DNA of 64,000 nucleotides from a virus. The notes under the pieces are model-generated. The model worked only from the letters and a program-made list of their open reading frames with translations. It was not told where the DNA came from and searched no databases. The first letter of the stretch is position 1; each line of letters starts with the position of its first letter. Positions 2,568-55,901 of the stretch are shown here, piece by piece. The position numbers were made by a program, and so were the translations under genes. The stretch lies in IMG/VR virus record IMGVR_UViG_3300008954_000005, positions 32,001-96,000 of that record; one strand, given 5' to 3'.

Positions 2568-2930
2568 GTGGAGACATGGATGAAGGAAAAAGGAGACACG
2601 GTAGACTTACTGCCGTTTGCTCAGCAAGTTAATGCTTCTCTCCAGAAGCAGAGCAAAGTAAAAAGTACGCTATATGAAAACTGGTTGGTGGACATCTACT
2701 TTGGGCCTAGCCCTACAGCAGATGAAGAACTACCAAGACTAGGTTTTATCGCTTGTGCATCGACACAAGACAAAGAGGCTGGTCCTCTCCCCAACTTGAG
2801 TAACTCAAGTGGGGTGCGAGTAGACTTCGACGAGAAGTCGGTTGTGTGGTGGTCCGGTGACTCACTGGACGATTTAGAATCTAAAATCACAAACGCATTC
2901 CCAGAAATTACCTGGAATAGGGAGGACTAA
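2568..2930 (+). CDS. hypothetical protein
   Basis: 120 aa ORF whose stop overlaps the Ubl start (TAATG). Confidence 0.6.
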   Translation: METWMKEKGDTVDLLPFAQQVNASLQKQSKVKSTLYENWLVDIYFGPSPTADEELPRLGFIACASTQDKEAGPLPNLSNSSGVRVDFDEKSVVWWSGDSLDDLESKITNAFPEITWNRED

Positions 2931-3361
2931 TGTCCACAGAGAATCTTCAAGAACAGCTTGATTCAGCAATCAAGACCAGAGATGAACATGTTCAAAATAT
3001 GGGAGATGAATTCAGCCAAGCCAATATGGATCGGCTGTCTGCACTCCAGAAGGCCGTTGCATCCGCAAAGACTGCCTTGGAAACCGCCGCTGCTGCAGCG
3101 GCTGCTCCTGCGGTAGAGGGAAATACCGACCTTTGTGTCGTATCTCTAATCCGAAGCGGAAAAAGCGACCGGGTCGTCGAGGTTCCTACGGATACCTCGG
3201 TGAGCGACCTTATGAATACTCTTGGTTGGCCAACCAACGACTTCACGTTTAAGCGTCGAGTCGGCCCAGGCCAAACCGTAGAGATTACCAATCTTGCAGC
3301 CACCCTCGGTACAGGTGATCACGAAATCTTCGTATCACCTCGTGTTGCAGGAGGCTTCTAG
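2930..3361 (+). CDS. ubiquitin-like (beta-grasp) protein with N-terminal coiled coil, C-terminus ...VAGGF
   Basis: Helical N-terminus, poly-Ala linker, then a ~75 aa domain (VVSLIRSG..VVEVPTDTSVSDLM..L.TGDHEIFVSPRVAGG-F) ending in di-Gly plus one residue. Directly upstream of E2, JAB and E1. Confidence 0.8.
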   Translation: MSTENLQEQLDSAIKTRDEHVQNMGDEFSQANMDRLSALQKAVASAKTALETAAAAAAAPAVEGNTDLCVVSLIRSGKSDRVVEVPTDTSVSDLMNTLGWPTNDFTFKRRVGPGQTVEITNLAATLGTGDHEIFVSPRVAGGF

Positions 3362-3390
3362 ACTCTAGTCTAACTAGAGATTCCCTCCTT

Positions 3391-3431
3391 GGGGGTGGGG
3401 CTACTTCGGTAGCTTCACCCCCTTTTTATTT
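3391..3431 (+). terminator. intrinsic terminator after the Ubl gene
   Basis: GGGGGTGGGGCTAC-TTCG-GTAGCTTCACCCCC stem with a C(UUCG)G loop, followed by TTTTTATTT. Confidence 0.85.
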
Positions 3432-3444
3432 ACGGAGAATACCC

Positions 3445-4539
3445 ATGGCTTCAACAAGCAACACACAATGGGAATGGAGAGTTGACGACGACAGCGACAA
3501 TCTCGAATTCCTTCTATCTAAAATTATTGATGACTCCGTAGCCTCCTCCAAAGTCAACACAGTTGAACTGGAAACAGAGCTAGCAAAGCTCACAGCAAAA
3601 CGCACTGCTTGGGAGAGTAAGCTAACGCGGAGAAAGTCTATAGAGCAGTCTGTGCGAGAACGCCTAGAAAAACGACAAGTCGAACTCAGAAAAGCTCAAG
3701 ACGCCTTCCATAAAGCTAGGCAAAAAACTAGAGCAGTAGGCTACAAAGTTTCTCAGGCAGTTGAAGACTCAAGGGCTCTTAGTAATACCCTCGGACAGGA
3801 AAAGCTCTTTCTAGACAACTTCGCTGGTATCTACACAGAGGACGCCTTTAAGAACAGGGCCTTTATGGTGATGTCCCTGCGCGAGCGCATTGACTCATCT
3901 ATTCCCATCTCGTTCTCTCATGATAGAGACCAAAAGAAGATGCGGCTCTCGTGGGTCACTGGAGACATCTACATAAATAACTCCTTAGAGGGCGGTGTCT
4001 GGCCATTTAACTTTGGGCAGTACCGCGTAGAGGTCACCTTCAGCTATATGAACGGACATAGAGACGCCAGAGTGCTTATCCGTGGCCACCGAAGAAATAC
4101 CATTGTTTCAGGTGAGTACTTTCACCCGCATATCCGGAGCGATGGTACGGCCTGTCTAGGCAATGTCGCCAGGATGCTAATTGAGCACATGGCTAACCAA
4201 GACGTGGCCCAAGTCATTTGCACAGTTACGGAATATCTGTGTCACTACAACGAACAAGATCCGTACAGAAAACTGATGTTCTGGGGTGTAGCTAATCCTT
4301 ACGACCTCCCACACATCAACATGTACCAGTCTCACTTAGTGTTTGACTCAGGGCCAAAGAACCCCTGTGGCCTCTCACAATCTGACTGCATGGTTCAGCA
4401 TTTGACAGATAAAGCTGGGGAGTGCTCGTCGAGGAGCCTGCCCGCAGAGGTAGTTGTGACAGCAACATCCGTATATGAAAATCTTCAATCTTTTAGGGAG
4501 CGACTTAATGGCGAAGGTAACGAAGAAACCAACGGTTAG
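3445..4539 (+). CDS. prokaryotic E2/UBC-like conjugating enzyme with N-terminal coiled coil
   Basis: YFHPHIRSDGTACLGN matches the UBC HPN/H...G.xC.L active-site signature. Residues ~40-125 form a coiled coil. Confidence 0.8.
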   Translation: MASTSNTQWEWRVDDDSDNLEFLLSKIIDDSVASSKVNTVELETELAKLTAKRTAWESKLTRRKSIEQSVRERLEKRQVELRKAQDAFHKARQKTRAVGYKVSQAVEDSRALSNTLGQEKLFLDNFAGIYTEDAFKNRAFMVMSLRERIDSSIPISFSHDRDQKKMRLSWVTGDIYINNSLEGGVWPFNFGQYRVEVTFSYMNGHRDARVLIRGHRRNTIVSGEYFHPHIRSDGTACLGNVARMLIEHMANQDVAQVICTVTEYLCHYNEQDPYRKLMFWGVANPYDLPHINMYQSHLVFDSGPKNPCGLSQSDCMVQHLTDKAGECSSRSLPAEVVVTATSVYENLQSFRERLNGEGNEETNG

Positions 4540-5506
4540 GTTCAGTCAAAAAGCCTACCAACAAATGTTTGCGTTAACGAACGCGTGTAAAATCGAAATC
4601 AGTGCTATGGGTATTGTTGCTACTGCCGAACAAAAAGAAGACGCGGGTGTAACTGAAGACTTCTATGTAACTGAGTTCTTTGTCATTGATCAGGAGTGCA
4701 CAGGCACGTCAACTGATCTAGATGATGATGCAATGGTGGACCTTCTTATGAACCTGCGTGATCAGGGAATTAAGTCGGAGCAAATGTGTGTTTGGTGGCA
4801 TAGCCACGTAAACATGGCCACTGCTCACTCAGGAACAGATGAAGCCCAAATCGAAAGATTTGATTTCGACACAGTCTGCATCTCTATTATCACTAATAAG
4901 AAGGGTGAGCTAAATCTGCGCGTGGACATGTTCCAGCCGTTTAGACACACCTTCGAGAAGTGTGATTACGTTCTAGACTTCGTAGATATCCTCCCAGATA
5001 ACTGGGCTGAGGAGATGGTCGCCACTCATGTAAATGAGAAAAAGATCATCCCGCAGAGGCTCAACGTTGTGAAATCACGATCACGCGGAGTTGTCACCGG
5101 ATACGGTGGGAACTGGGGTGGTTGGAGTCGTTGGGAAGATGACGATGACGAGCGTAACGTGCTTGGGGCATCCACCACTAGTGGTCGTGAAATCGTTAAG
5201 TCCTCCGACCTACTGAAAGAAGGCGATGACGATGACCTCCCGGCATTTGACGCCCTCGATCTCCCAAAAGAATTGGGTCATCTACAAGACGCGTGGGATC
5301 TAAATCTGCTCGACACTCAGGACGTAATGGAACTCTTTGCGAGATGGTATGCAAAAGAGTTGAGTACAGAAGAAGTTGTCCAAGAGCTAGAGGAAACCCA
5401 CAACATCCTTGTAAGCGATTTAAAAGCTGGAGACGATGAGGATCCGGCTGATGCTGTCGTGGATACTGAAGTAGATGACCTGTTAACTTTTGGAGGTACT
5501 GCATGA
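4508..5506 (+). CDS. JAB/MPN+ metalloprotease (deubiquitinase-like) with acidic tail
   Basis: EISAMG (catalytic Glu) and WWHSHVNMATAHSGTD fit the JAMM HxH-x7-S-x2-D motif. ATG 4508 follows AGGGAG. Confidence 0.88.
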   Translation: MAKVTKKPTVRFSQKAYQQMFALTNACKIEISAMGIVATAEQKEDAGVTEDFYVTEFFVIDQECTGTSTDLDDDAMVDLLMNLRDQGIKSEQMCVWWHSHVNMATAHSGTDEAQIERFDFDTVCISIITNKKGELNLRVDMFQPFRHTFEKCDYVLDFVDILPDNWAEEMVATHVNEKKIIPQRLNVVKSRSRGVVTGYGGNWGGWSRWEDDDDERNVLGASTTSGREIVKSSDLLKEGDDDDLPAFDALDLPKELGHLQDAWDLNLLDTQDVMELFARWYAKELSTEEVVQELEETHNILVSDLKAGDDEDPADAVVDTEVDDLLTFGGTA

Positions 5507-6165
5507 TTGACACCACGAGGCAGTCTGGAATTATTCCAGACGACCGCCTCTCGGACGTGTCGGTAGCGATCATCGGTGTGGGGGCCATTGGCTCTCACAC
5601 CGTTGAGTCGCTCTCAAAAATGGGAATCCGACATTTTCATATATTTGATGATGACGTTGTAGAAGAACACAACCTAGCCAACCAAGGCTATTTCCTACCC
5701 GAAATCGGGTATAAGAAAGTTGAAGCCTTAGCTAATCGTATTTCGGTTGGAACTGGGGCGGAGGTTGTTGCTGACGCATGTCGAGTAGAAGACAACCACG
5801 ACTTTACGGAACGGTACGTAATCTCTGCTGTAGACAATATGGCCTCTCGAAAAAGCATTTTCGAATCATTCCTCAACAGCACCACATCCCGTTTCTTTTT
5901 GGATGGTCGTATGGCGGCTCGGTTCGGGCAAGTCTACTTCGTAGACAAACTCAAACCAGAAACCATCGAAAAGTATGAAAACAGCCTATTCAGTGATGAG
6001 GAAGCTGTTCCCCTGCCGTGCACGGAGAAGGCCACAATCTTCTGCGCGTATGGGATTGCGTCTTTTATGTCCGCTCTTATCGCAAAGAGCATTATCGAAG
6101 AGCCCATTAAGTTTATGTCTGCGGAACTAGATTTCGCAAACATACTCCTGATGCAAGCTCTTTAA
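5503..6165 (+). CDS. E1/ThiF/MoeB-family adenylating enzyme
   Basis: TRQ arginine finger, IIGVGAIG, FDDDVVEEHNLANQ, KVEAL, AVDN, LDGRM and candidate catalytic Cys in PLPCTEKAT. Confidence 0.92.
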   Translation: MIDTTRQSGIIPDDRLSDVSVAIIGVGAIGSHTVESLSKMGIRHFHIFDDDVVEEHNLANQGYFLPEIGYKKVEALANRISVGTGAEVVADACRVEDNHDFTERYVISAVDNMASRKSIFESFLNSTTSRFFLDGRMAARFGQVYFVDKLKPETIEKYENSLFSDEEAVPLPCTEKATIFCAYGIASFMSALIAKSIIEEPIKFMSAELDFANILLMQAL

Positions 6166-6215
6166 ATCAACCAATCGGGCTACGTCCCGAACTTAGAACC
6201 CTTAAGGAGGGAATT

Positions 6216-6959
6216 ATGGCGAATGACAAGCAGAAAAGTTGGACCACCGGTCTTCCTATGGAGGGCCTCATCAGCCCGTCTCGGGCACCCGATGTGATCA
6301 GCGTGGAATTCAACGGTACTACCACCAAGCTTCTGAAGCAGGTGGTAGCGAAGGATGAGGAGGGCACCGCCGTCTCCATCCGATACGTTGGAACACCTGT
6401 TGGTCCTGACGGGCGGTCCTGCCGCTTCGCAATGTCCATTGAAACAAATGGATTCGTGCGAGGCTCTGCGGCGATGAACTTCATCGCTGCGGGTGGTTGG
6501 GGTCGTGGTACGACTAAGCCCGATGAGGCTACCAAGCGTGAGAGCCGGAACAACTTCGTTCGTGGACTCATCACTAGCGCAATCGTCCATCAGGGTATGG
6601 ACAACAGCGCGGAGATGAAGTCCGTGATCGAACGGGAAACCGGCCTCACGGTTACTGACGGTGAGATGTCCCCAGAGGACAAGAACCTGTACGCTCTGTT
6701 GGGCGTTCGGGCGTACATCGTCACCTTGGCGGAAAGCCGGAACCTCAAGTTCTCGGTGGACCTCAAGAGCTTCATGGGCAAGGTGGTTCAGCCTACCTAT
6801 GCCGCCATCGTTGAGGGGGAGTGGGATGAGGAAAGTGACGAAGTCGCTCTCACCTCTGCTCTGAGCGAGGCTCACGTTCAACTGCTCACTGGTGCAGGCC
6901 TGAAGTTCCGCAAGGTTCGGAGGGCTCGTGGGGTGCAAAGGAAGACTCAGACCTCGTAG
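6216..6959 (+). CDS. hypothetical protein, probably highly expressed
   Basis: AAGGAGG RBS, GC3-rich codons and its own terminator. Last gene of the Ubl unit. Confidence 0.75.
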   Translation: MANDKQKSWTTGLPMEGLISPSRAPDVISVEFNGTTTKLLKQVVAKDEEGTAVSIRYVGTPVGPDGRSCRFAMSIETNGFVRGSAAMNFIAAGGWGRGTTKPDEATKRESRNNFVRGLITSAIVHQGMDNSAEMKSVIERETGLTVTDGEMSPEDKNLYALLGVRAYIVTLAESRNLKFSVDLKSFMGKVVQPTYAAIVEGEWDEESDEVALTSALSEAHVQLLTGAGLKFRKVRRARGVQRKTQTS

Positions 6960-6999
6960 TCTGATCTCCCAATTGTACGCTTAGCCGTGCGGGCCTTAT

Positions 7000-7035
7000 A
7001 GAGAGAGGGGGGTTTATCCCCCCCTCTTTCTTTTT
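7000..7035 (+). terminator. intrinsic terminator
   Basis: AGAGAGAGGGGGG-TTTAT-CCCCCCCTCTTTC followed by a T-run. Confidence 0.8.
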
Positions 7036-7074
7036 ACCCCAAACCCTATTAAGGTGTAATACCGATTGATAGAA

Positions 7075-7188
7075 TGACAGAGAATACCCTGTCACTGACA
7101 AACAATAGACTGTCAGTAAAACACTAGGTTTATCCGCTAGTTACGTATTTTTTAGGGTATAAGTACCCTGACAGACAATTACTTGTCA
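7075..7188. promoter_or_regulatory. three TGACA-N10-TGTCA palindromes (7075-7094, 7096-7115, 7169-7188) around a GGTATAAG motif (7156-7163)
   Basis: Read directly from the sequence. All three have an identical 10-nt spacer length. Confidence 0.75.
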
Positions 7189-7225
7189 GTCCCTTCTATT
7201 CCCACAGTCCACAAGGAGGATTCAA

Positions 7226-8308
7226 ATGTCGATAAGGTTGATGAACACACGTGTTCCAGACCATATTCTTGTAAAAGGCGTGGTCACAAAAAGGTCTACG
7301 GCGTATTCAACCAACCTTTTCTGTGACCCAAACGACCCAGAAGAAACAGCTTACTTCGAAGATGAACTTACCCCGCTTGAAAAGGGTCACGTCTACCTTT
7401 GGAAAGAAGATGAATCTGGTGCAGTCTTAGTCCACATGCCATACAGAATTATGGATAAAGAAACTGGTTCCCTTCTGAAGGGTCTCAGTTCCTATAGGTC
7501 AATTGGGACTTTAATTGCTAGAAGCATACCCCAGAAAATGACTCTATCTCCAAAATCTTGCTTACAGGATTTTTTACTGAGCTATACCGATTTTAAAGTA
7601 TTCTCTCATAGAGTAGAGACCTTAGGGGGTACTACTGAAAAGGACTCAGTTGACCTAGAGCAGTTCCTGAAAGACATGCAGTACATCACTTCAGAAGCAA
7701 GTACCCTCCAAGCAAAAATAGGGACACTCAGGACAAAATACTGTATGTCTAGTTCAGAAGAATTATTGGACACAGAGGAAAAACTAAACGAAGTTCTTAG
7801 AGAGTTTGCCTGGGTAAGAGAAGAGATAACAGAGCTTGGTAACAAGCGGGTACTTATTGTTAAGAAGCTTGCCGCATTGAAGTGTGAAATCAATAGGACA
7901 ACTGACTATATCAGAGCTTCAGCGGAACAAGAGCAAGTACAAGAAGCCCTTAAGATGCTTAACCAAACCAACTTCGACAGAATTACCAGAGAAGCGATAC
8001 ACAAACACAATATCGATTCAGGCAGAGAACAGTCTACTGTGATACCTGCCCATATTGGTTCTCTGGCTAGCGCAATAGCGGAACTTAGAACGTACTACCC
8101 AGCCCTCACAAAGCTGACAGGTCATGGAGAGAACGTAGTCATAAGCCTCTCAGGTCTTAGGCTCATTCTTACACCAACTACCATAAAGGTAGAAGGAGAC
8201 CCATCAGTATTGAAGCCCTACATGGGTGAGGGCGCTACAGTAGACGCTTCCGGAAATGCTTCTCTTCGGAGAAGGAGGAGGAACATTGTACCAGATGTAA
8301 AGAAGTAA
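7226..8308 (+). CDS. coiled-coil hypothetical protein
   Basis: 360 aa, AAGGAGG RBS, long central heptad region. Confidence 0.75.
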   Translation: MSIRLMNTRVPDHILVKGVVTKRSTAYSTNLFCDPNDPEETAYFEDELTPLEKGHVYLWKEDESGAVLVHMPYRIMDKETGSLLKGLSSYRSIGTLIARSIPQKMTLSPKSCLQDFLLSYTDFKVFSHRVETLGGTTEKDSVDLEQFLKDMQYITSEASTLQAKIGTLRTKYCMSSSEELLDTEEKLNEVLREFAWVREEITELGNKRVLIVKKLAALKCEINRTTDYIRASAEQEQVQEALKMLNQTNFDRITREAIHKHNIDSGREQSTVIPAHIGSLASAIAELRTYYPALTKLTGHGENVVISLSGLRLILTPTTIKVEGDPSVLKPYMGEGATVDASGNASLRRRRRNIVPDVKK

Positions 8309-8315
8309 CACACAC

Positions 8316-8429
8316 CGACAGAGTATAGATTGTCAAGCCAATAGGCGGTTGATCTCGAAGTAAGTACAGGCAATTACTACGTTTTTAACGACAAAGATTA
8401 CCTTGTCAGTGACACACATTATATTGTCA
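8316..8429. promoter_or_regulatory. three YGACA-N10-TGTCA palindromes (8316-8335, 8389-8408, 8410-8429) upstream of parB
   Basis: Read directly. Same spacing as the 7075-7188 cluster. Confidence 0.75.
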
Positions 8430-8513
8430 TTTTATTCCTAATGGAGAACCTACTACCGATGAATATTTATGCAGCGGTATTGAGAACAAAACCAACAAAT
8501 GGAGGTTATTACC

Positions 8514-9413
8514 ATGCAGCTTGAGCAGCAGGTATTCCCAATTGACAGCATCGAGCGAAATGTGCTCGGTTTCCGAAACAGTCGATCCGATGTTGGAGAT
8601 ACGCGAGAACTTCGCGCCTCCATCATTTCCGATGGGCTGCTAAACCCCCCAATCGTTCACGTTACTACAGATGAAGATGGTAATGAGAGAGTCCTTCTCA
8701 TTGCGGGCTATCGACGACTCCAGGCTATTCTGGATGAGCGGCAGGCTCGAAGTGAGGGGGAGGATGAAGAGGCTTTCTTCGAAGACATCGCATGCGGTGT
8801 CCACGTTGGATCTCTTGAGTCCGCTCTCGCCCTGAACATTGCAGAGAACCTGCAGCGTGAAACGCTAAACTTCGCAGATAAGTGTGAAGCCGTATTCCGA
8901 CTTAATGAGCGCATCGGTAATCAGCAAGAAGTTGCTGATATGCTGAACATCTCTCAGCCCCAGGTGAGCGTTCTTTGCTCCACCTACAAGGGACTGAGTA
9001 CTGTTGCGTTCGATTGTCTTCGGCACGGTCGAATCACCATGGGACAGGCTAAGAAGCTTGCCAAGGTGGTGAAGGCTGACGGTACTCCAGACGCTGGTCA
9101 GCAGGATGAAATCCTTGAACAGCTTCTGGGACAGGGTAAGGATGAGGTTCCTGACACTAAGCAGCGTCAGCGAGCTAAGACCTACCGCTCGAAGAAGGAA
9201 GTCGAAGAGCTTCGTACCGCTCTTGCAAACGACGAAACCGGACTGGATCAGGAGCACAAGGACGCGGCGACCCGCTTCGTTCAGTGGTACTTCTGCGAAA
9301 TCGATACTGATGAACTCATTCATCGTATTGATGCGGTCGAAGAGGTTACGGTCGAAGATAAGCCCACCAAGAAGACGATTAAGCGTAAGCGTCGTATTCG
9401 GGTAGGTGACTAA
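8514..9413 (+). CDS. parB: ParB/Spo0J-family protein
   Basis: ELRASI..DGLLNPPIV, LIAGYRRLQA (GxRR box), ENLQRETL, and HTH QQEVADMLNISQPQVS. ATG 8514 follows GGAGG. Confidence 0.88.
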   Translation: MQLEQQVFPIDSIERNVLGFRNSRSDVGDTRELRASIISDGLLNPPIVHVTTDEDGNERVLLIAGYRRLQAILDERQARSEGEDEEAFFEDIACGVHVGSLESALALNIAENLQRETLNFADKCEAVFRLNERIGNQQEVADMLNISQPQVSVLCSTYKGLSTVAFDCLRHGRITMGQAKKLAKVVKADGTPDAGQQDEILEQLLGQGKDEVPDTKQRQRAKTYRSKKEVEELRTALANDETGLDQEHKDAATRFVQWYFCEIDTDELIHRIDAVEEVTVEDKPTKKTIKRKRRIRVGD

Positions 9414-47700: not shown

Positions 47701-50700
47701 AAGACCGAACACCCTTTTCAAACATGGGGTTCGGCATAGAGGTTCCAAGAGCGATGTGCCCCCAATGATTACCGCCTGGGCCACCGGTCACGTCCTCATC
47801 AAATAGACCGCCCTTTTCTGGCTTTAGATCCTTGCCGCGAATTACGCGACTACCATCGGTAATCTCACCGTTAGAGGTCTCAAGAATTTGTTTATCCGTG
47901 AGAGGTGAGACAACAAGACCATTCCCCTCCTTCTCCACGTTAAGACCAAGAGCCCCCATGTACGCCAAGAATTTTTCATATGCGAACGATGGTTTTGGGT
48001 TGGGGAGGATCTGGCCTGTTTGGACTGCTGTCCAAATCTCATCCTGTTGCTTATCGCTTTTGTAGGTCAGTGCGTCCCGAATATTGGCTGTAGCTCCGTG
48101 GGCAAGCATGGCGTAAAGACCTAGTTCGCCAAACCGCTGTGCGCCTCCGGTTTCCCCACCGCCCTTGGGAACCAAGTTTGCGTCGTAGTCGTGTCCGTAA
48201 CCATGTGCCCTAGCACGGAGCTTCTTATCAATCTGATGTAGCAGCTTAAGCGTGTACTGCTTACCTACCAGTACTTGCCCCAGACTCTTCCCTGTGACCG
48301 GATCGAACAACTCCGTGGTTTCAGAGACGCCCTCTGCGGCAAGAACCTTCTTTACCTGCTCTTGGTAGCCGACTTCACGGTCGTGGGCCTTAATCGTTAT
48401 TTGCTTAGGGCCTTCTTTTGTCTGGATAGTGCGGGTGTGCTCCTTAACCCGGACAATCTTTTTCCCTCCGCTAGCCTGAAAGTTATCGACTGCGTAAGGC
48501 TCGCCCCGCTTGTCAGCAACCTTAGCCAAACTGGTCTCTAGGACCTGCCCTAGATTGATTCGGCCCGGAACACCAGAAGGATTCAGAATCAACTGGAGTG
48601 GGTTCCCTTCCGCATCTCTGGGCATCTCCTCATCAGGTATTACGGCAGTAATAACACCTTTATTGCCATGCCTACCTGTGAGTTTATCTCCTACGTCTGC
48701 GGGTTCTTCGGTCTTTACGTAGACCATTATCTCTCGACCATTACGAACAACATCCGTAACGACTCCGGCGTAAGGCTTCTCCCAGGTGACAGAGCGGTCC
48801 TTGAAGGGGCGTACCAGGGATTTATGGATTCCCTTCAACATCGCCTGCTCTTTTGAGGGCTCTGTCTTTTGGAGAACCGTCATCAAAGTGTCGCCTGGGT
48901 CAACCCGCTGGCCCTTCTTAATGACACCATCCTCATCCAGCTTGGCAGCGTTATCGTCCGTTACTGAGCCTGGGAAATTTGCCCGGAACTTGCGTAGCCC
49001 AACCTGCATATTTTTTTCAACGTACGCCCTATTTTTGTGCAGATGCTCGCTAGTCAGCTTCTTTGACGCCGTTTCAGAGATGACGATGCCGTCCTCAAAC
49101 ACCAAACCTTTGTAGGGGATGTAGCCAACCCTAAGGTTCGTGCCCATCGACAGCGTCCCGTCTTTTGTGAAGTTGGTGTCCGCGAGTGTCTGGCCAGCTT
49201 TGACGGTGTCCCCCTTCTTAACCAAGGGGGTGCTGCTGACAAAGGCCTTCTTGTCGTTCAGGGGAAAGTTGTCGTAGAGGGGCATCTCTACCTTGCTACC
49301 GTCCTTCGCCTGTAGAACGATTTTGGTGGCCCCAACAGACAGAACAGTCCCAGAGATTGGGCTGTTGTGACTAGTGAAGGAACCTACAATGTTTTCCCAC
49401 GTTTTAAACCGTTTGCTCGGGTTGCCGGAGACTACCTGCACAAGTGGTTGTTCTCGATCTTTTAGGGCTACCGCTTGTTCCATGTGGCGGGTAGCCATTC
49501 CAGCGCGATTAGCCTGATCCGTAGGGAGGAACGGGATCAGATTTGCTGTGATGGAGAACATGCCTTTGGGGGACCGAAGGATGTAATCGACCTCATTAGG
49601 CGCAACCTTCTCTGGATCCCCACCGTCTTTTCGGACAACCGTTACTAAGCTGTCAACGGCCTTAGGCTTCTTTCCAGAAAAGTCGTACTGGTCCGGGAAA
49701 GCGATGGCGGCATTAGCTAGGTCTGCTGGGCTTTTATCCACGTACGCCCCAGACTTGGTGTCGTACACAGTGATTAACGGCGTCGTCCCATCCTTCTTAA
49801 CACCCAAAGCAAGATGCCCGCTGATACCAGAACGCTTGCCCTCTGGTGTGTGCACCGGATCGATAAACCCTAGGAAGCTAGAGTCAATAAGCTTTGCATC
49901 ATCTGAAACAGCCTGCTCATTAGAAATACCACCCTGCCCCATAATGGTCGTTCGTAGGAACCCACCAATCATATCTACCGGGTTAACTTGGCTTGTTTGC
50001 TGGGACAGCGACGTTGACGTAAAGAAGGTTTTGATAGGGATGTTGAAGACATCCGGTGTAACGATGGCGCGAACGCTATCCTTCCTATCGATATTGTTCC
50101 CTAGCTTATACTGGATTCTTCTAGCTGAATTACCAATCCGCTCGGGAATGTGGTTGTCAATGGACCAAAGCTCCTTAAACCGAAGGGAGTCCCGATTATC
50201 AACCTCAGCCTCCCCCCTATTAATGGCTAATAACTTTCTAGAAGAGGCTAGCAGCGCACCACCGGAGACTTTATCGAAGCCTTCACCCAGGGTAATCGCT
50301 GTTGTATCTTTGAGTAACGCTGTTTTGTCGTACGCTTCTTTGACGATTGCCGCAGCCTCAGTATCGTTTGCTGGGGCGGCACCGCGTACAAGAGCCTTGG
50401 CGAGCTTAACGACCTCCCCCCGCTTTTTATCAGAGACGCTCCGTGCGTATAGCTCAGCCCCCCAAGCAGCACGGATGTCCTCATCCGGAATTCCCAAAGC
50501 TTGTAGAACGGGCAGTAGTTGAACGTTTGACGTTCCATACCCCATTAAGAATCTTCGTCTTGCGGGGTCGAATCCCAAACGGAAACCCCGCCCAGCCGCT
50601 AGGTTGAACTGGCTCTCAAGCTCTCCGTTGGCTTTACGTCTGGCGTACACCCCGGATTTTAGCCGCCACTGGTTGTCTACCTGATACTCCGTACCATCGA

Positions 50701-55123: not shown

Positions 55124-55131
55124 GGTATAAG
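55124..55131 (+). promoter_or_regulatory. GGTATAAG promoter-like motif at the structural/replication divergence point
   Basis: Lies in the 74 nt divergent intergenic region. Confidence 0.6.
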
Positions 55132-55179: not shown

Positions 55180-55452
55180 ATGTCAAATGATAAACCGTAT
55201 ACCATTAATGTAGAAGTGCCAACTGATTCTATAACAACAGATGAACCCAGAGAAGTTCCTGAAATTTTAGTAACTGGTTTGATGGACTTATTCAATAGGA
55301 TCTCCCGCAGTCTCCGCAAACCACCCTCTCAAGATACCACAGGGACTGCGCTTGAAACCGGTGGAACCATCATAGATATCGACTTTGACGAAGTATCTGC
55401 TTGTGACAAAGAAGATTCTGTCATATATCATGATAGCGATCAAGACAACTAG
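55180..55452 (+). CDS. small acidic hypothetical protein
   Basis: ATG 55180 follows GGAGG. Confidence 0.6.
   Translation: MSNDKPYTINVEVPTDSITTDEPREVPEILVTGLMDLFNRISRSLRKPPSQDTTGTALETGGTIIDIDFDEVSACDKEDSVIYHDSDQDN
55403..55431 (+). promoter_or_regulatory. TGACA-N10-TGTCA palindrome (55404-55423) overlapping a sigma70-like promoter GTGACA-N17-TATCAT
   Basis: Read directly. Lies 33 nt upstream of the XRE gene. Confidence 0.6.
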
Positions 55453-55463
55453 CAGAGGACTCT

Positions 55464-55901
55464 ATGAAAACAAAATCTCGTTTCGGCACGGTTTTGTCAA
55501 CCATGCGAACCAGCCGCAGACTGTCCTCTCGTAAATTTGCAGAATTGTGTGGATTAAATAGAGAGACGTACCGTCAGTACGAAACGGGCAAAGTTTTACC
55601 GCCAAACCAGAGTTTGGAGAAGATTCTTAAGGCACTCGACCTTGACCCCAGTAAAGACGAAGAGGCTAAACGGCTGATAGCGGCTCTATACGAAGAACGA
55701 AGTAAAAGAGAGCCCGCAGCTAAACGAGCTTTTGGTGCCGCCGCTAACGCGGAACTTCGGAAATATATTAAAAAGGACTCCATCTCAGAAGACAAGACCG
55801 CCCGAATAGTGGACTTGTTCTTTGAGCACCTCCCAACAGAACGAACGGAGAGTATGGAACATTTTATCTCGGGGGCAATAACCCGGATATTGGAGAAGTA
55901 A
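55464..55901 (+). CDS. XRE/Cro-family HTH regulator
   Basis: FG..L...R....LS...FAELCGLNRETYRQYETGKVLP....LEKILKAL. Confidence 0.88.
   Translation: MKTKSRFGTVLSTMRTSRRLSSRKFAELCGLNRETYRQYETGKVLPPNQSLEKILKALDLDPSKDEEAKRLIAALYEERSKREPAAKRAFGAAANAELRKYIKKDSISEDKTARIVDLFFEHLPTERTESMEHFISGAITRILEK

What the first reader, a model, noticed from the sequence alone, without database searches (positions are those of the whole stretch)
7075..8429. Six YGACA-N10-TGTCA palindromes bracket one gene and precede parB
Seen: sites at 7075, 7096, 7169, 8316, 8389 and 8410, all with exactly 10-nt spacers. Each cluster has a tandem pair at a 21-bp period (two helical turns) plus a single site 73 bp from the nearer pair member. 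The two clusters are mirror images (pair+single, then single+pair). A 10-base pattern is expected well under once in 64 kb by chance. One site lies just downstream of the GGTATAAG motif. Inference: binding sites of a dimeric HTH protein, acting as parS-like loading sites, as operators allowing a DNA loop around 7226..8308, or as origin iterons.
Basis: partly seen in the sequence, partly recalled or inferred. Interest (0 to 1): 0.75.

Follow-up and report, generated by a model that had tools for sequence, protein, structure and literature searches.

The report
Conserved six-operator array around phage gene
Six 20-base palindromes, arranged as two mirror-image triplets around one unknown gene just before a ParB-like gene, are real and are kept almost letter for letter in every known relative of this uncultured marine phage, so they are almost certainly binding sites of a phage regulator that controls this gene block, probably by looping the DNA.

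Summary
All six YGACA-N10-TGTCA sites are present, against 0.2 expected by chance. The 21/73 | 73/21 bp mirror layout is exact.

Eight diverged lineages keep the 3+3 array, although the bracketed gene falls to 37% protein identity. Spacings are 21-22, 72-73 | 72-75, 20-21 bp. Of 470 half-site positions, 462 match the consensus, while the spacers drift freely. In five related records (three complete), exact sites occur nowhere else.

Site 3 starts 5 nt after the lineage's GGTATAAG promoter box. I read the array as operators of a dimeric helix-turn-helix regulator. The layout resembles lambda OL/OR and probably forms a repression complex that loops out the 360-aa gene.

The binder is unresolved. 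The two recognisable HTH proteins I found are the neighbouring ParB-like protein and a distant XRE-type protein.
- One lineage (G007) keeps the geometry but relaxes the outer half-site bases to TRRCA. There the XRE recognition helix carries R33A and ParB is unchanged. This slightly favours XRE, but it is a single event.
- A ParB/parS-like role remains a serious rival.
- Origin, recombination and RNA readings are not supported.

I rate this a new variant of a known kind, of moderate interest.

The parts
7007..7023 (+). Intrinsic terminator closing the upstream operon (the gene ending at 6959)
   Evidence: G-rich hairpin followed by a T-tract. Equivalent hairpins precede the array in relatives.
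7075..7094 (.). Site s1, TGACA-N10-TGTCA, outer member of the upstream tandem pair
   Evidence: present at the same relative place in 8 lineages.
7096..7115 (.). Site s2, inner member of the upstream pair, 21 bp from s1
7136..7163 (+). Phage-type promoter: GCTAGTTA (7136-7143), a 12-nt spacer, then GGTATAAG (7156-7163)
   Evidence: both boxes are invariant islands in the MAFFT alignment of six lineages, and the 12-nt spacer is the same in all. Searches show GGTATAAG heading other plus-strand units. That it is a promoter is inferred, following earlier notes e1-5881908 and e1-5881909.
7169..7188 (.). Site s3, single operator 73 bp from s2, starting 5 nt after GGTATAAG and so over the predicted transcription start
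7226..8308 (+). orf360, the bracketed gene. Family of unknown function, RBS AAGGAGG at 7213-7219, Arg-rich C-terminal tail
   Evidence: No Pfam, PHROG or NCBIfam hit beyond weak coiled-coil-type hits to Rad50/SMC models, far below cut-off. 102 representative clusters. AF2 model at pLDDT 91.2 with only a generic three-helix bundle matched.
8316..8335 (.). Site s4, single operator 8 nt after the orf360 stop codon
8389..8408 (.). Site s5, 73 bp from s4, inner member of the downstream pair
8410..8429 (.). Site s6, 21 bp from s5, outer member of the downstream pair
8514..9413 (+). ParB/Spo0J-family gene (candidate binder 2). Carries AGYRR and ENLQRE boxes and the HTH NISQPQVSVLCSTYKGL
   Evidence: TIGR00180 residues 4-184, E 1e-11, below cut-off. 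ParB PHROGs. Aligns to Spo0J 1vz0. HTH conserved in all TGACA lineages.
55464..55901 (+). XRE/Cro-type HTH gene (candidate binder 1), near the head of the replication operon, 47 kb away
   Evidence: HTH_31/HTH_3, E 1e-9. The only HTH_3 match over cut-off in the genome. Orthologues in all relatives. R33A in the one lineage with relaxed sites.

Best explanation
The six palindromes are operators of a dimeric helix-turn-helix regulator. They form two mirror-image triplets, one on each side of orf360. The refined motif is TGACAR-N2-WNWW-N2-YTGTCA.

Shown: the half-sites and the spacings between sites are under strong purifying selection, while the spacer letters are not. The sites are confined to this one locus of the genome. 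Site s3 abuts a conserved phage-type promoter.

Inferred: a dimer on s3 blocks the phage RNA polymerase at the start of the orf360 transcript. Dimers on s1 and s2, two and nine helical turns upstream on the same face of the DNA, bind cooperatively with it. No terminator separates orf360 from the ParB-like gene, so the downstream triplet s4-s6 controls transcription entering the ParB / AAA ATPase / RecA-like operon. Because the two arms have the same spacing in mirror order, they can pair in register (s3 with s4, s2 with s5, s1 with s6). This would loop out the 1.1-kb orf360 gene, much as lambda CI joins OL1-3 with OR1-3.

The protein is most likely the XRE-type product of 55464-55901. It would be made with the replication genes and so would switch this block off after an early burst. 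That identification rests on one comparative event, so the neighbouring ParB-like protein is nearly as likely.
For: The sites are real and non-random.

The 3+3 array recurs in eight diverged lineages, with orf360 at 69% down to 37% identity. Spacings are 21-22, 72-73 | 72-75, 20-21 bp. Of 470 half-site positions, 462 match the consensus. The spacers are free apart from an A/T-rich centre and R/Y next to the half-sites.

In five related records, three of them complete, exact sites occur only at this locus, and the control pattern gives 0.

GCTASTTA-N12-GGTATAAG-N5-s3 is invariant in the alignments. There is no terminator between orf360 and parB.

Lineage L014 has a canonical GGTATAAG in front of parB, with an extra seventh site over its upstream region. 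That is operator-like placement.

HTH_3 is matched over its cut-off only by the XRE gene, and the ParB HTH gives only weak matches.

G007 keeps the geometry but relaxes its half-sites to T-R-R-C-A. All 14 changes fall in positions 1-3 and none in the 24 'CA' positions. Its XRE has R33A at the start of the recognition helix, while its ParB has no change at any position invariant elsewhere.

In the distant relative G006, which lacks TGACA sites, a 162-aa HTH protein aligning to the XRE profile (hhalign probability 94%) is encoded between orf360 and parB, beside three other palindromes.
Against: No binding, transcription-start or expression data exist for this uncultured phage.

The XRE link rests on a single lineage. 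With two lineage-specific changes among roughly 35 conserved positions, one landing on a base-contacting residue is not rare (about 1 in 4).

The XRE gene lies 47 kb away and has no conserved site of this kind at its own promoter.

The downstream triplet has no conserved promoter in mirror orientation, so its regulatory target is unclear.

The half-site centres are 14-15 bp apart, which is wider than in classic Cro/CI operators. By my recollection, HipB (N8 spacer) and lux-box-type sites show that such spacing is possible.

The loop is pure inference from the geometry.
Confidence: 0.45

Rival explanations
1. The sites are parS-like sites of the neighbouring ParB-family protein. ParB dimers bind the palindromes, probably close as CTP-dependent clamps, and spread or bridge the two clusters. 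They would then autoregulate the operon in the manner of KorB, or organise or position the phage DNA without a ParA partner.
For: The ParB-like gene follows the array in all nine lineages.

The protein has the ParB N-terminal boxes (AGYRR, ENLQRE) and a canonical HTH.

No other recurrent palindrome exists in the genome that could serve as its site.

Its recognition helix is conserved wherever TGACA sites occur and differs in G006, where they are absent.

From my own knowledge, not checked here: clusters flanking par genes, and ParB-mediated pairing, are known from pB171 parC1/parC2 and from the mycobacteriophage RedRock parS-L/parS-R.
Against: In G007 the outer half-site bases are relaxed, yet ParB has no substitution at any otherwise invariant position.

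Short 5-6-bp half-sites split by a free 10-bp spacer are unlike the contiguous 13-16-bp parS, OB or NBS sites.

No ParA-type ATPase was found in the window's genome or in three complete relatives.

Site placement on a promoter start fits an ordinary operator equally well.
Confidence: 0.33
2. The bracketed gene orf360 encodes the binder, as cI does between OL and OR in lambda. It would autoregulate through the two flanking triplets.
For: The layout matches the lambda immunity region. orf360 always lies between the triplets. It has an Arg-rich C-terminal tail. G007 carries two lineage-specific changes in it, L187K and R224N.
Against: The high-confidence model (pLDDT 91.2) shows no helix-turn-helix, winged-helix or ribbon-helix-helix element. 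Only a spectrin-like three-helix bundle finds matches. The distant homologue in G006 has no array upstream.
Confidence: 0.08
3. The sites are origin iterons. orf360 would be an initiator flanked by its binding sites, like the repA or repE genes of P1 and F, which lie between iteron sets next to par genes.
For: The gene order (sites, gene, sites, parB) recalls the P1 and F replicons. By recollection, the lambda origin iterons are also palindromic at about a 21-bp period.
Against: orf360 shows no initiator-like fold or family.

The most AT-rich 40-nt stretch is only 0.70-0.72, and the spacers hold no DnaA boxes.

Cumulative GC skew turns only where gene orientation turns.

The helicase, primase and polymerase genes lie 47 kb away.

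Site s3 sits on a promoter.
Confidence: 0.04
4. The sites are recombination or inversion sites (res- or hix-like triplets), or RNA hairpins acting in the transcript.
For: Three subsites per cluster in mirror order resemble accessory-site architectures. Sites s3-s6 are probably transcribed.
Against: No tyrosine or serine recombinase was found in this genome.

orf360 has the same orientation relative to its flanks in every lineage.

Sites s1 and s2 lie upstream of the promoter.

The RNA fold of 8300-8520 is no better than shuffles (z -0.86), and no Rfam family matches.

The 21/73-bp phasing is a property of double-stranded DNA.
Confidence: 0.03

Closest known systems
Lambda immunity region: OL1-3 and OR1-3 flanking cI-rexAB, joined by CI octamer/dodecamer looping (own knowledge)
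   Same: Both have two clusters of three palindromic operators in mirror order. Both bracket one short gene block 1-2.4 kb long, have neighbouring sites about two helical turns apart, and have operators overlapping promoters.
   Different: Here the triplet is a pair plus a single site 73 bp away, with the promoter between them. The half-sites are split by a free 10-bp spacer. The bracketed gene shows no DNA-binding fold. The promoter is read by a phage-encoded sigma and RNA polymerase. No lysogeny genes were found.
ParB-parS, KorB-OB and centromere clusters flanking par genes (pB171 parC1/parC2, mycobacteriophage RedRock parS-L/parS-R; own knowledge)
   Same: Clustered palindromes lie next to a ParB-family gene and are confined to that locus, on both sides of a gene. 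ParB-family proteins autoregulate and bridge DNA.
   Different: There is no ParA. The site type (5-6-bp half-sites with an N10 spacer) is unlike known parS or OB sites. The gene between the clusters is not a partition NTPase. The G007 comparison argues against ParB reading the outer bases.
HipB operators (TATCC-N8-GGATA, four phased copies) and other XRE/Cro-type multi-operator promoters; ArgR ARG-box pairs at a 21-bp period (own knowledge)
   Same: All have short half-sites separated by a long non-specific, A/T-rich spacer, with several copies phased on one face of the helix around a promoter. HipB is an XRE-family dimer.
   Different: The motif is different, the spacer is longer, and there is a second mirror-image cluster 1.1 kb away. 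The candidate regulator is encoded far from its target.
gal (OE/OI) and lac (O1/O3) repression loops of about 90-115 bp enclosing a promoter (own knowledge)
   Same: Auxiliary operators lie an integral number of turns (73 and 94 bp) from a primary operator at the transcription start, with the promoter in between.
   Different: The loop would be shorter. No bending-protein site was identified. The polymerase is phage-encoded.

Membership tests
ParB-parS partition or loading site | A ParB/Spo0J-family protein with an HTH is encoded next to the sites | tested here: met
   TIGR00180 E 1e-11 (below its cut-off), ParB PHROGs, and an alignment to Spo0J 1vz0 with GxRR and ENLQRE boxes. The gene is adjacent in nine lineages.
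ParB-parS partition or loading site | The site is a contiguous palindrome of about 13-16 bp read over 7-8 bp per half | tested here: not met
   The logo of 47 sites shows information only in TGACAR and YTGTCA, separated by a variable spacer of 8-10 bp.
ParB-parS partition or loading site | A partner ParA-type (or other) partition NTPase is present | tested here: not met
   PF13614 finds no match in the window's genome or in three complete relatives, and PF01656 finds none in the window's genome, while the controls are positive. orf360 has no NTPase motif or fold.
ParB-parS partition or loading site | ParB binds the sites specifically and CTP-dependent clamping occurs | not testable with these tools
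   This needs EMSA or footprinting and CTP assays. The indirect G007 test shows the sites changed while ParB did not.
Operator array of a dimeric HTH repressor (lambda OL/OR-like) | Palindromic sites overlap or flank a promoter | tested here: met
   Site s3 starts 5 nt after the conserved GGTATAAG box in all lineages, and s1-s2 lie 20 nt upstream of the GCTASTTA box. The promoter itself is inferred, not mapped.
Operator array of a dimeric HTH repressor (lambda OL/OR-like) | Sites are phased by integral helical turns, and the phasing is conserved | tested here: met
   Spacings of 21-22 and 72-75 bp in eight lineages.
Operator array of a dimeric HTH repressor (lambda OL/OR-like) | A cognate repressor is identified | tested here: inconclusive
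   There are two HTH candidates. XRE R33A coincides with relaxed outer half-site bases in G007, but this is a single event.
Iteron-type replication origin | An initiator gene, an AT-rich unwinding element, host DnaA or IHF sites, and a skew switch | tested here: not met
   No initiator family or fold was recognised, and fold searches for the orf360 end domains are inconclusive. The maximum AT in 40 nt is 0.72, with no DnaA boxes in the spacers. The skew follows gene strand.
Site-specific recombination sites (res/hix) | A recombinase is encoded, and both orientations or excision are seen | tested here: not met
   PF00589 and PF00239 are absent from the 87%-complete genome. The orientation is fixed in all lineages.

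The most novel reading that the evidence does not exclude
The array is the anchoring platform of a ParA-less ParB system in a virulent-type phage. ParB-CTP clamps load on the six sites and zip the two mirror-image arms together. With the unknown orf360 protein (new fold combination, Arg-rich docking tail like that of ParB) and the downstream Cdc48-like ATPase, they would form a new kind of phage DNA-organising or silencing machine.
Probability: 0.12. Interest if true: 0.75.

Novelty: new variant of a known kind. Interest (0 to 1): 0.5.

Why it matters
This phage lineage is uncultured. According to earlier notes of this scan, it brings its own bacterial-type RNA polymerase and sigma factor. Almost nothing is known about how such phages time their genes.

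The array is a sharply defined, deeply conserved control element on one of their own promoters. There are only two plausible readers, so a handful of gel-shift and reporter experiments with synthetic DNA could settle the circuit.

The natural TRRCA / R33A variant offers a ready-made specificity test.

Tried and rejected
- **Nucleotide and protein searches.** blastn of the region and tblastn of orf360, and of two distant family members, against cultured phages found nothing. ParB gave only remote hits there.
- **Scans for more relatives.** Pattern-based scans with P0014 and P0022 found nothing. Two wide alignments were too diverse to scan with. The last viral scan, using the promoter pattern, gave no new lineage.
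- **Unrelated pattern hits.** Promoter-plus-site matches L015, L017, L018 and L021 lie inside a coding region. L001, L004-L007 and L010 from the tandem-pair scan show no homology to the module genes.
- **Fold searches of orf360.** PDB Foldseek, BFVD and VIA-align wide returned only generic helical bundles. The protein atlas gave nothing.
- **Extra window sites.** The 55404 site as an XRE auto-operator is rejected: it is coding sequence and is not conserved. The palindrome inside parB at 8920 is rejected as a parS candidate because it merely encodes NQQEVAD.
- **Mirror similarity of the inter-site spacers.** It is weak (z 0.8-4.0) and is not relied on.
- **Sigma-70 promoters.** None are found in the region.
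- **Literature.** Searches found no described TGACA-N10-TGTCA system and no work on this gene module.

Full report
**1. The observation**

The window holds YGACA-N10-TGTCR at 7075, 7096, 7169, 8316, 8389 and 8410, and also at 49237 and 55404. That is 8 matches against 0.20 expected, and no shuffle out of 100 reaches 8.

In the whole 155.7-kb record, GACA-N10-TGTC occurs 11 times, against 0-1 times with spacers of 8, 9, 11 or 12. Start-to-start distances are 21, 73, 1147, 73 and 21 bp, so the two clusters are exact mirror images.

The anatomy, read, runs in this order:
- terminator, 7007-7023
- s1 and s2
- GCTAGTTA (7136-7143), 12 nt, then GGTATAAG (7156-7163)
- 5 nt, then s3 (7169-7188)
- RBS, then orf360 (7226-8308)
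- s4, 8 nt after the stop codon
- s5 and s6
- a ParB-like gene, 8514-9413

No terminator lies between orf360 and that gene.

The two extra sites are inside coding sequence. 49237 is in the RNA polymerase gene. 55404 is in a small ORF, where the half-sites spell Cys-Asp and Val codons.

**2. Context**

The record is an uncultured marine phage, about 87% complete. According to earlier notes of this scan, it encodes a single-chain bacterial-type RNA polymerase and its own sigma factor. The same notes report a GGTATAAG promoter class.

Upstream of the array lie a ThiF-type E1 gene of a ubiquitin-like cassette and an unknown 247-aa gene. Downstream lie the ParB-like gene, a Cdc48/Ycf46-type AAA ATPase, a RecA-like protein, a radical-SAM protein and a DUF1257 protein. 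The replication genes (helicases, primase, family A polymerase) begin at 55.9 kb, behind an XRE-type HTH gene at 55464-55901.

**3. Conservation**

A scan of viral contigs for the tandem pair, together with protein-based scans, recovered relatives of the module.

In eight lineages, orf360 identity to the window ranges from 69% down to 37%, and ParB identity from 90% to about 50%. The same 3+3 array is present in all of them. d(s1,s2) is 21-22 bp, d(s2,s3) is 72-73, d(s3,s4) is 1118-1150, d(s4,s5) is 72-75, and d(s5,s6) is 20-21.

In a logo of 47 sites, 462 of 470 half-site positions match TGACA/TGTCA. The base next to each half-site is R (46 of 47) or Y. Positions 9, 11 and 12 are A/T. The rest of the spacer is free, and it is G+C-rich in one lineage.

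MAFFT alignments of the two intergenic regions show the half-sites, GCTASTTA and GGTATAAG as the only invariant islands.

In five related records, three of them complete at 173-181 kb, exact sites occur only at this locus. There are 4-6 per record, against 0 for the control pattern.

The element is therefore functional, acts as double-stranded DNA (helical phasing is conserved), and has a single target locus. An RNA role is not supported: s1 and s2 lie upstream of the promoter, the RNA fold has z -0.86, and there is no Rfam match.

**4. What it does**

Site s3 begins 5 nt after the conserved -10-like box, so it covers the predicted transcription start. Sites s2 and s1 are centred about 65 and 86 bp upstream, on the same face of the helix. 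This is the classical layout of a primary operator with phased auxiliary operators.

One lineage (L014) has a canonical GGTATAAG in front of parB, with a seventh site over its upstream region. That is again operator placement.

The downstream triplet has no conserved promoter in mirror orientation. I infer that it controls passage of transcription into the parB operon, serves as the second arm of a loop, or does both.

Because the sites are palindromic and the arms have equal spacing in mirror order, the arms can align in register (s3:s4, s2:s5, s1:s6) with orf360 as a 1.1-kb loop. The closest known architecture is lambda OL1-3/OR1-3 around cI. Looping is inference only.

**5. Who binds**

orf360 belongs to a family of about 100 representative clusters. 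A model at pLDDT 91.2 has three parts: an N-terminal alpha/beta domain, a spectrin-like three-helix bundle and a small C-terminal beta domain. It shows no recognisable DNA-binding element and no informative structural match.

In family scans of the whole genome, HTH_3 is matched over its cut-off only by the XRE gene. The ParB HTH gives only weak matches to HTH_3 and HTH_17, and GerE finds nothing.

*The case for ParB.* The gene is adjacent in every lineage. The family habitually binds clustered palindromes near its own gene. No other recurrent palindrome exists in the genome. The recognition helix is conserved wherever TGACA sites occur and differs in the distant relative G006, which lacks them.

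*The case against ParB.* The site type is unlike parS. No ParA is found in the genome or in complete relatives. The G007 test below also counts against it.

*The G007 test.* The complete relative G007 keeps the 21/73 | 73/21 geometry, but its twelve half-sites read T-R-R-C-A. There are fourteen departures from TGACA. All fall in positions 1-3 and none in the 24 'CA' positions. The chance of that under uniform decay is about 8e-4. Specificity for the outer bases was therefore relaxed while binding was retained.
- G007's ParB has no substitution at any position invariant in the other seven lineages.
- Its XRE protein has two, one of which is R33A, at the first turn of the recognition helix (S-R-E-T-x-R).
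- orf360 has two, L187K and R224N.

From my memory of the 434 repressor-operator complex, the residue at this helix position reads the outermost base pairs of the half-site. That would fit.

*The G006 comparison.* In G006, a 162-aa HTH protein aligning to the XRE profile (probability 94%, residues 7-81) is encoded between orf360 and parB. It lies next to three CTCTACCAAC-N2-GTTGGTAGAG palindromes.

*Weighing.* These two observations tip me slightly towards XRE. However, they amount to a single evolutionary event plus an analogy. My odds are XRE-type or another non-ParB repressor 0.45, ParB 0.33, orf360 0.08, origin 0.04, and recombination or RNA 0.03, with the remainder unassigned.

**6. Rejected readings**

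*Origin.* No initiator-like protein was recognised. The maximum AT in 40 nt is 0.72, and the spacers hold no DnaA boxes. The skew turns only with gene strand. The replication genes are far away.

*Recombination.* No tyrosine or serine recombinase was found. The orientation of orf360 is fixed in all lineages.

**7. Limits**

The promoter and transcription start are inferred.

**8. Verdict**

The operator and loop reading is favoured, the parS reading is still open, and the origin reading is not supported. This is a new variant of a known kind: a lambda-like two-triplet operator system, or a split-site ParB platform, on a phage-polymerase promoter. It is conserved across a whole uncultured lineage and is readily testable.

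Noticed in passing
window 8260-8308 and 9370-9413; family tails: orf360 and the ParB-like protein both end in a disordered Arg-rich tail followed by a hydrophobic-x-hydrophobic motif (…RRRRRNIV…, …KRKRRIRVGD). Across the orf360 family the tail motif is R-rich plus [FI]-x-x-[IVL], for example SRFSAI. This may be a shared docking peptide, perhaps for the downstream AAA ATPase.
   Followed up: partly
L056:1970-3300 (record G006): In a distant relative the orf360-parB spacer holds three 22-bp palindromes (CTCTACCAAC-N2-GTTGGTAGAG), two TTACTAGTAA palindromes and two small HTH genes in place of the TGACA array. There is no array upstream of orf360.
   Followed up: partly
L014:1440-1500: One lineage has a seventh TGACA-N10-TGTCA site 20 nt upstream of a canonical GGTATAAG box in front of the ParB-like gene. 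Other lineages have only GGTATT- or GGTTATAA-like boxes there, at varying distances.
   Followed up: partly
window 2930-9413: A ubiquitin-like / E2 / JAB / ThiF-E1 cassette lies two genes upstream of the ParB-like gene. The ParB gives a weak hit to the PRTRC (ParB-related, ThiF-related cassette) ParB model TIGR03734, at 33 bits and far below its cut-off. The neighbourhood may be a phage version of that uncharacterised cassette.
   Followed up: no
window 7116-7168 versus reverse complement of 8336-8388: The 30 nt next to each tandem pair share a weak mirror-image similarity (…AAAAC-TAG…sTACTTAC). A GTAAGT-like word is kept in the downstream spacer of most lineages. Alignment z-scores are only 0.8-4.0.
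   Followed up: partly
L051:1775-1885 and 2995-3108 (record G007): This complete relative has six sites that keep the geometry but read TRRCA…TGYYA. It is a natural specificity variant, useful for binding tests.
   Followed up: yes
window 55181-55452: A small acidic ORF lies between the GGTATAAG box at 55124 and the XRE gene. It contains the chance TGACA-N10-TGTCA match at 55404, and a one-mismatch copy in G001 arises from the same Cys-Asp…Val codons.
   Followed up: yes
L006:5164-5730: An unrelated 59-kb viral contig carries five identical copies of GACACAGAGGTTGGTGTC, partly at a 21-bp period. This is a different repeated palindromic element, picked up by the pair pattern.
   Followed up: no
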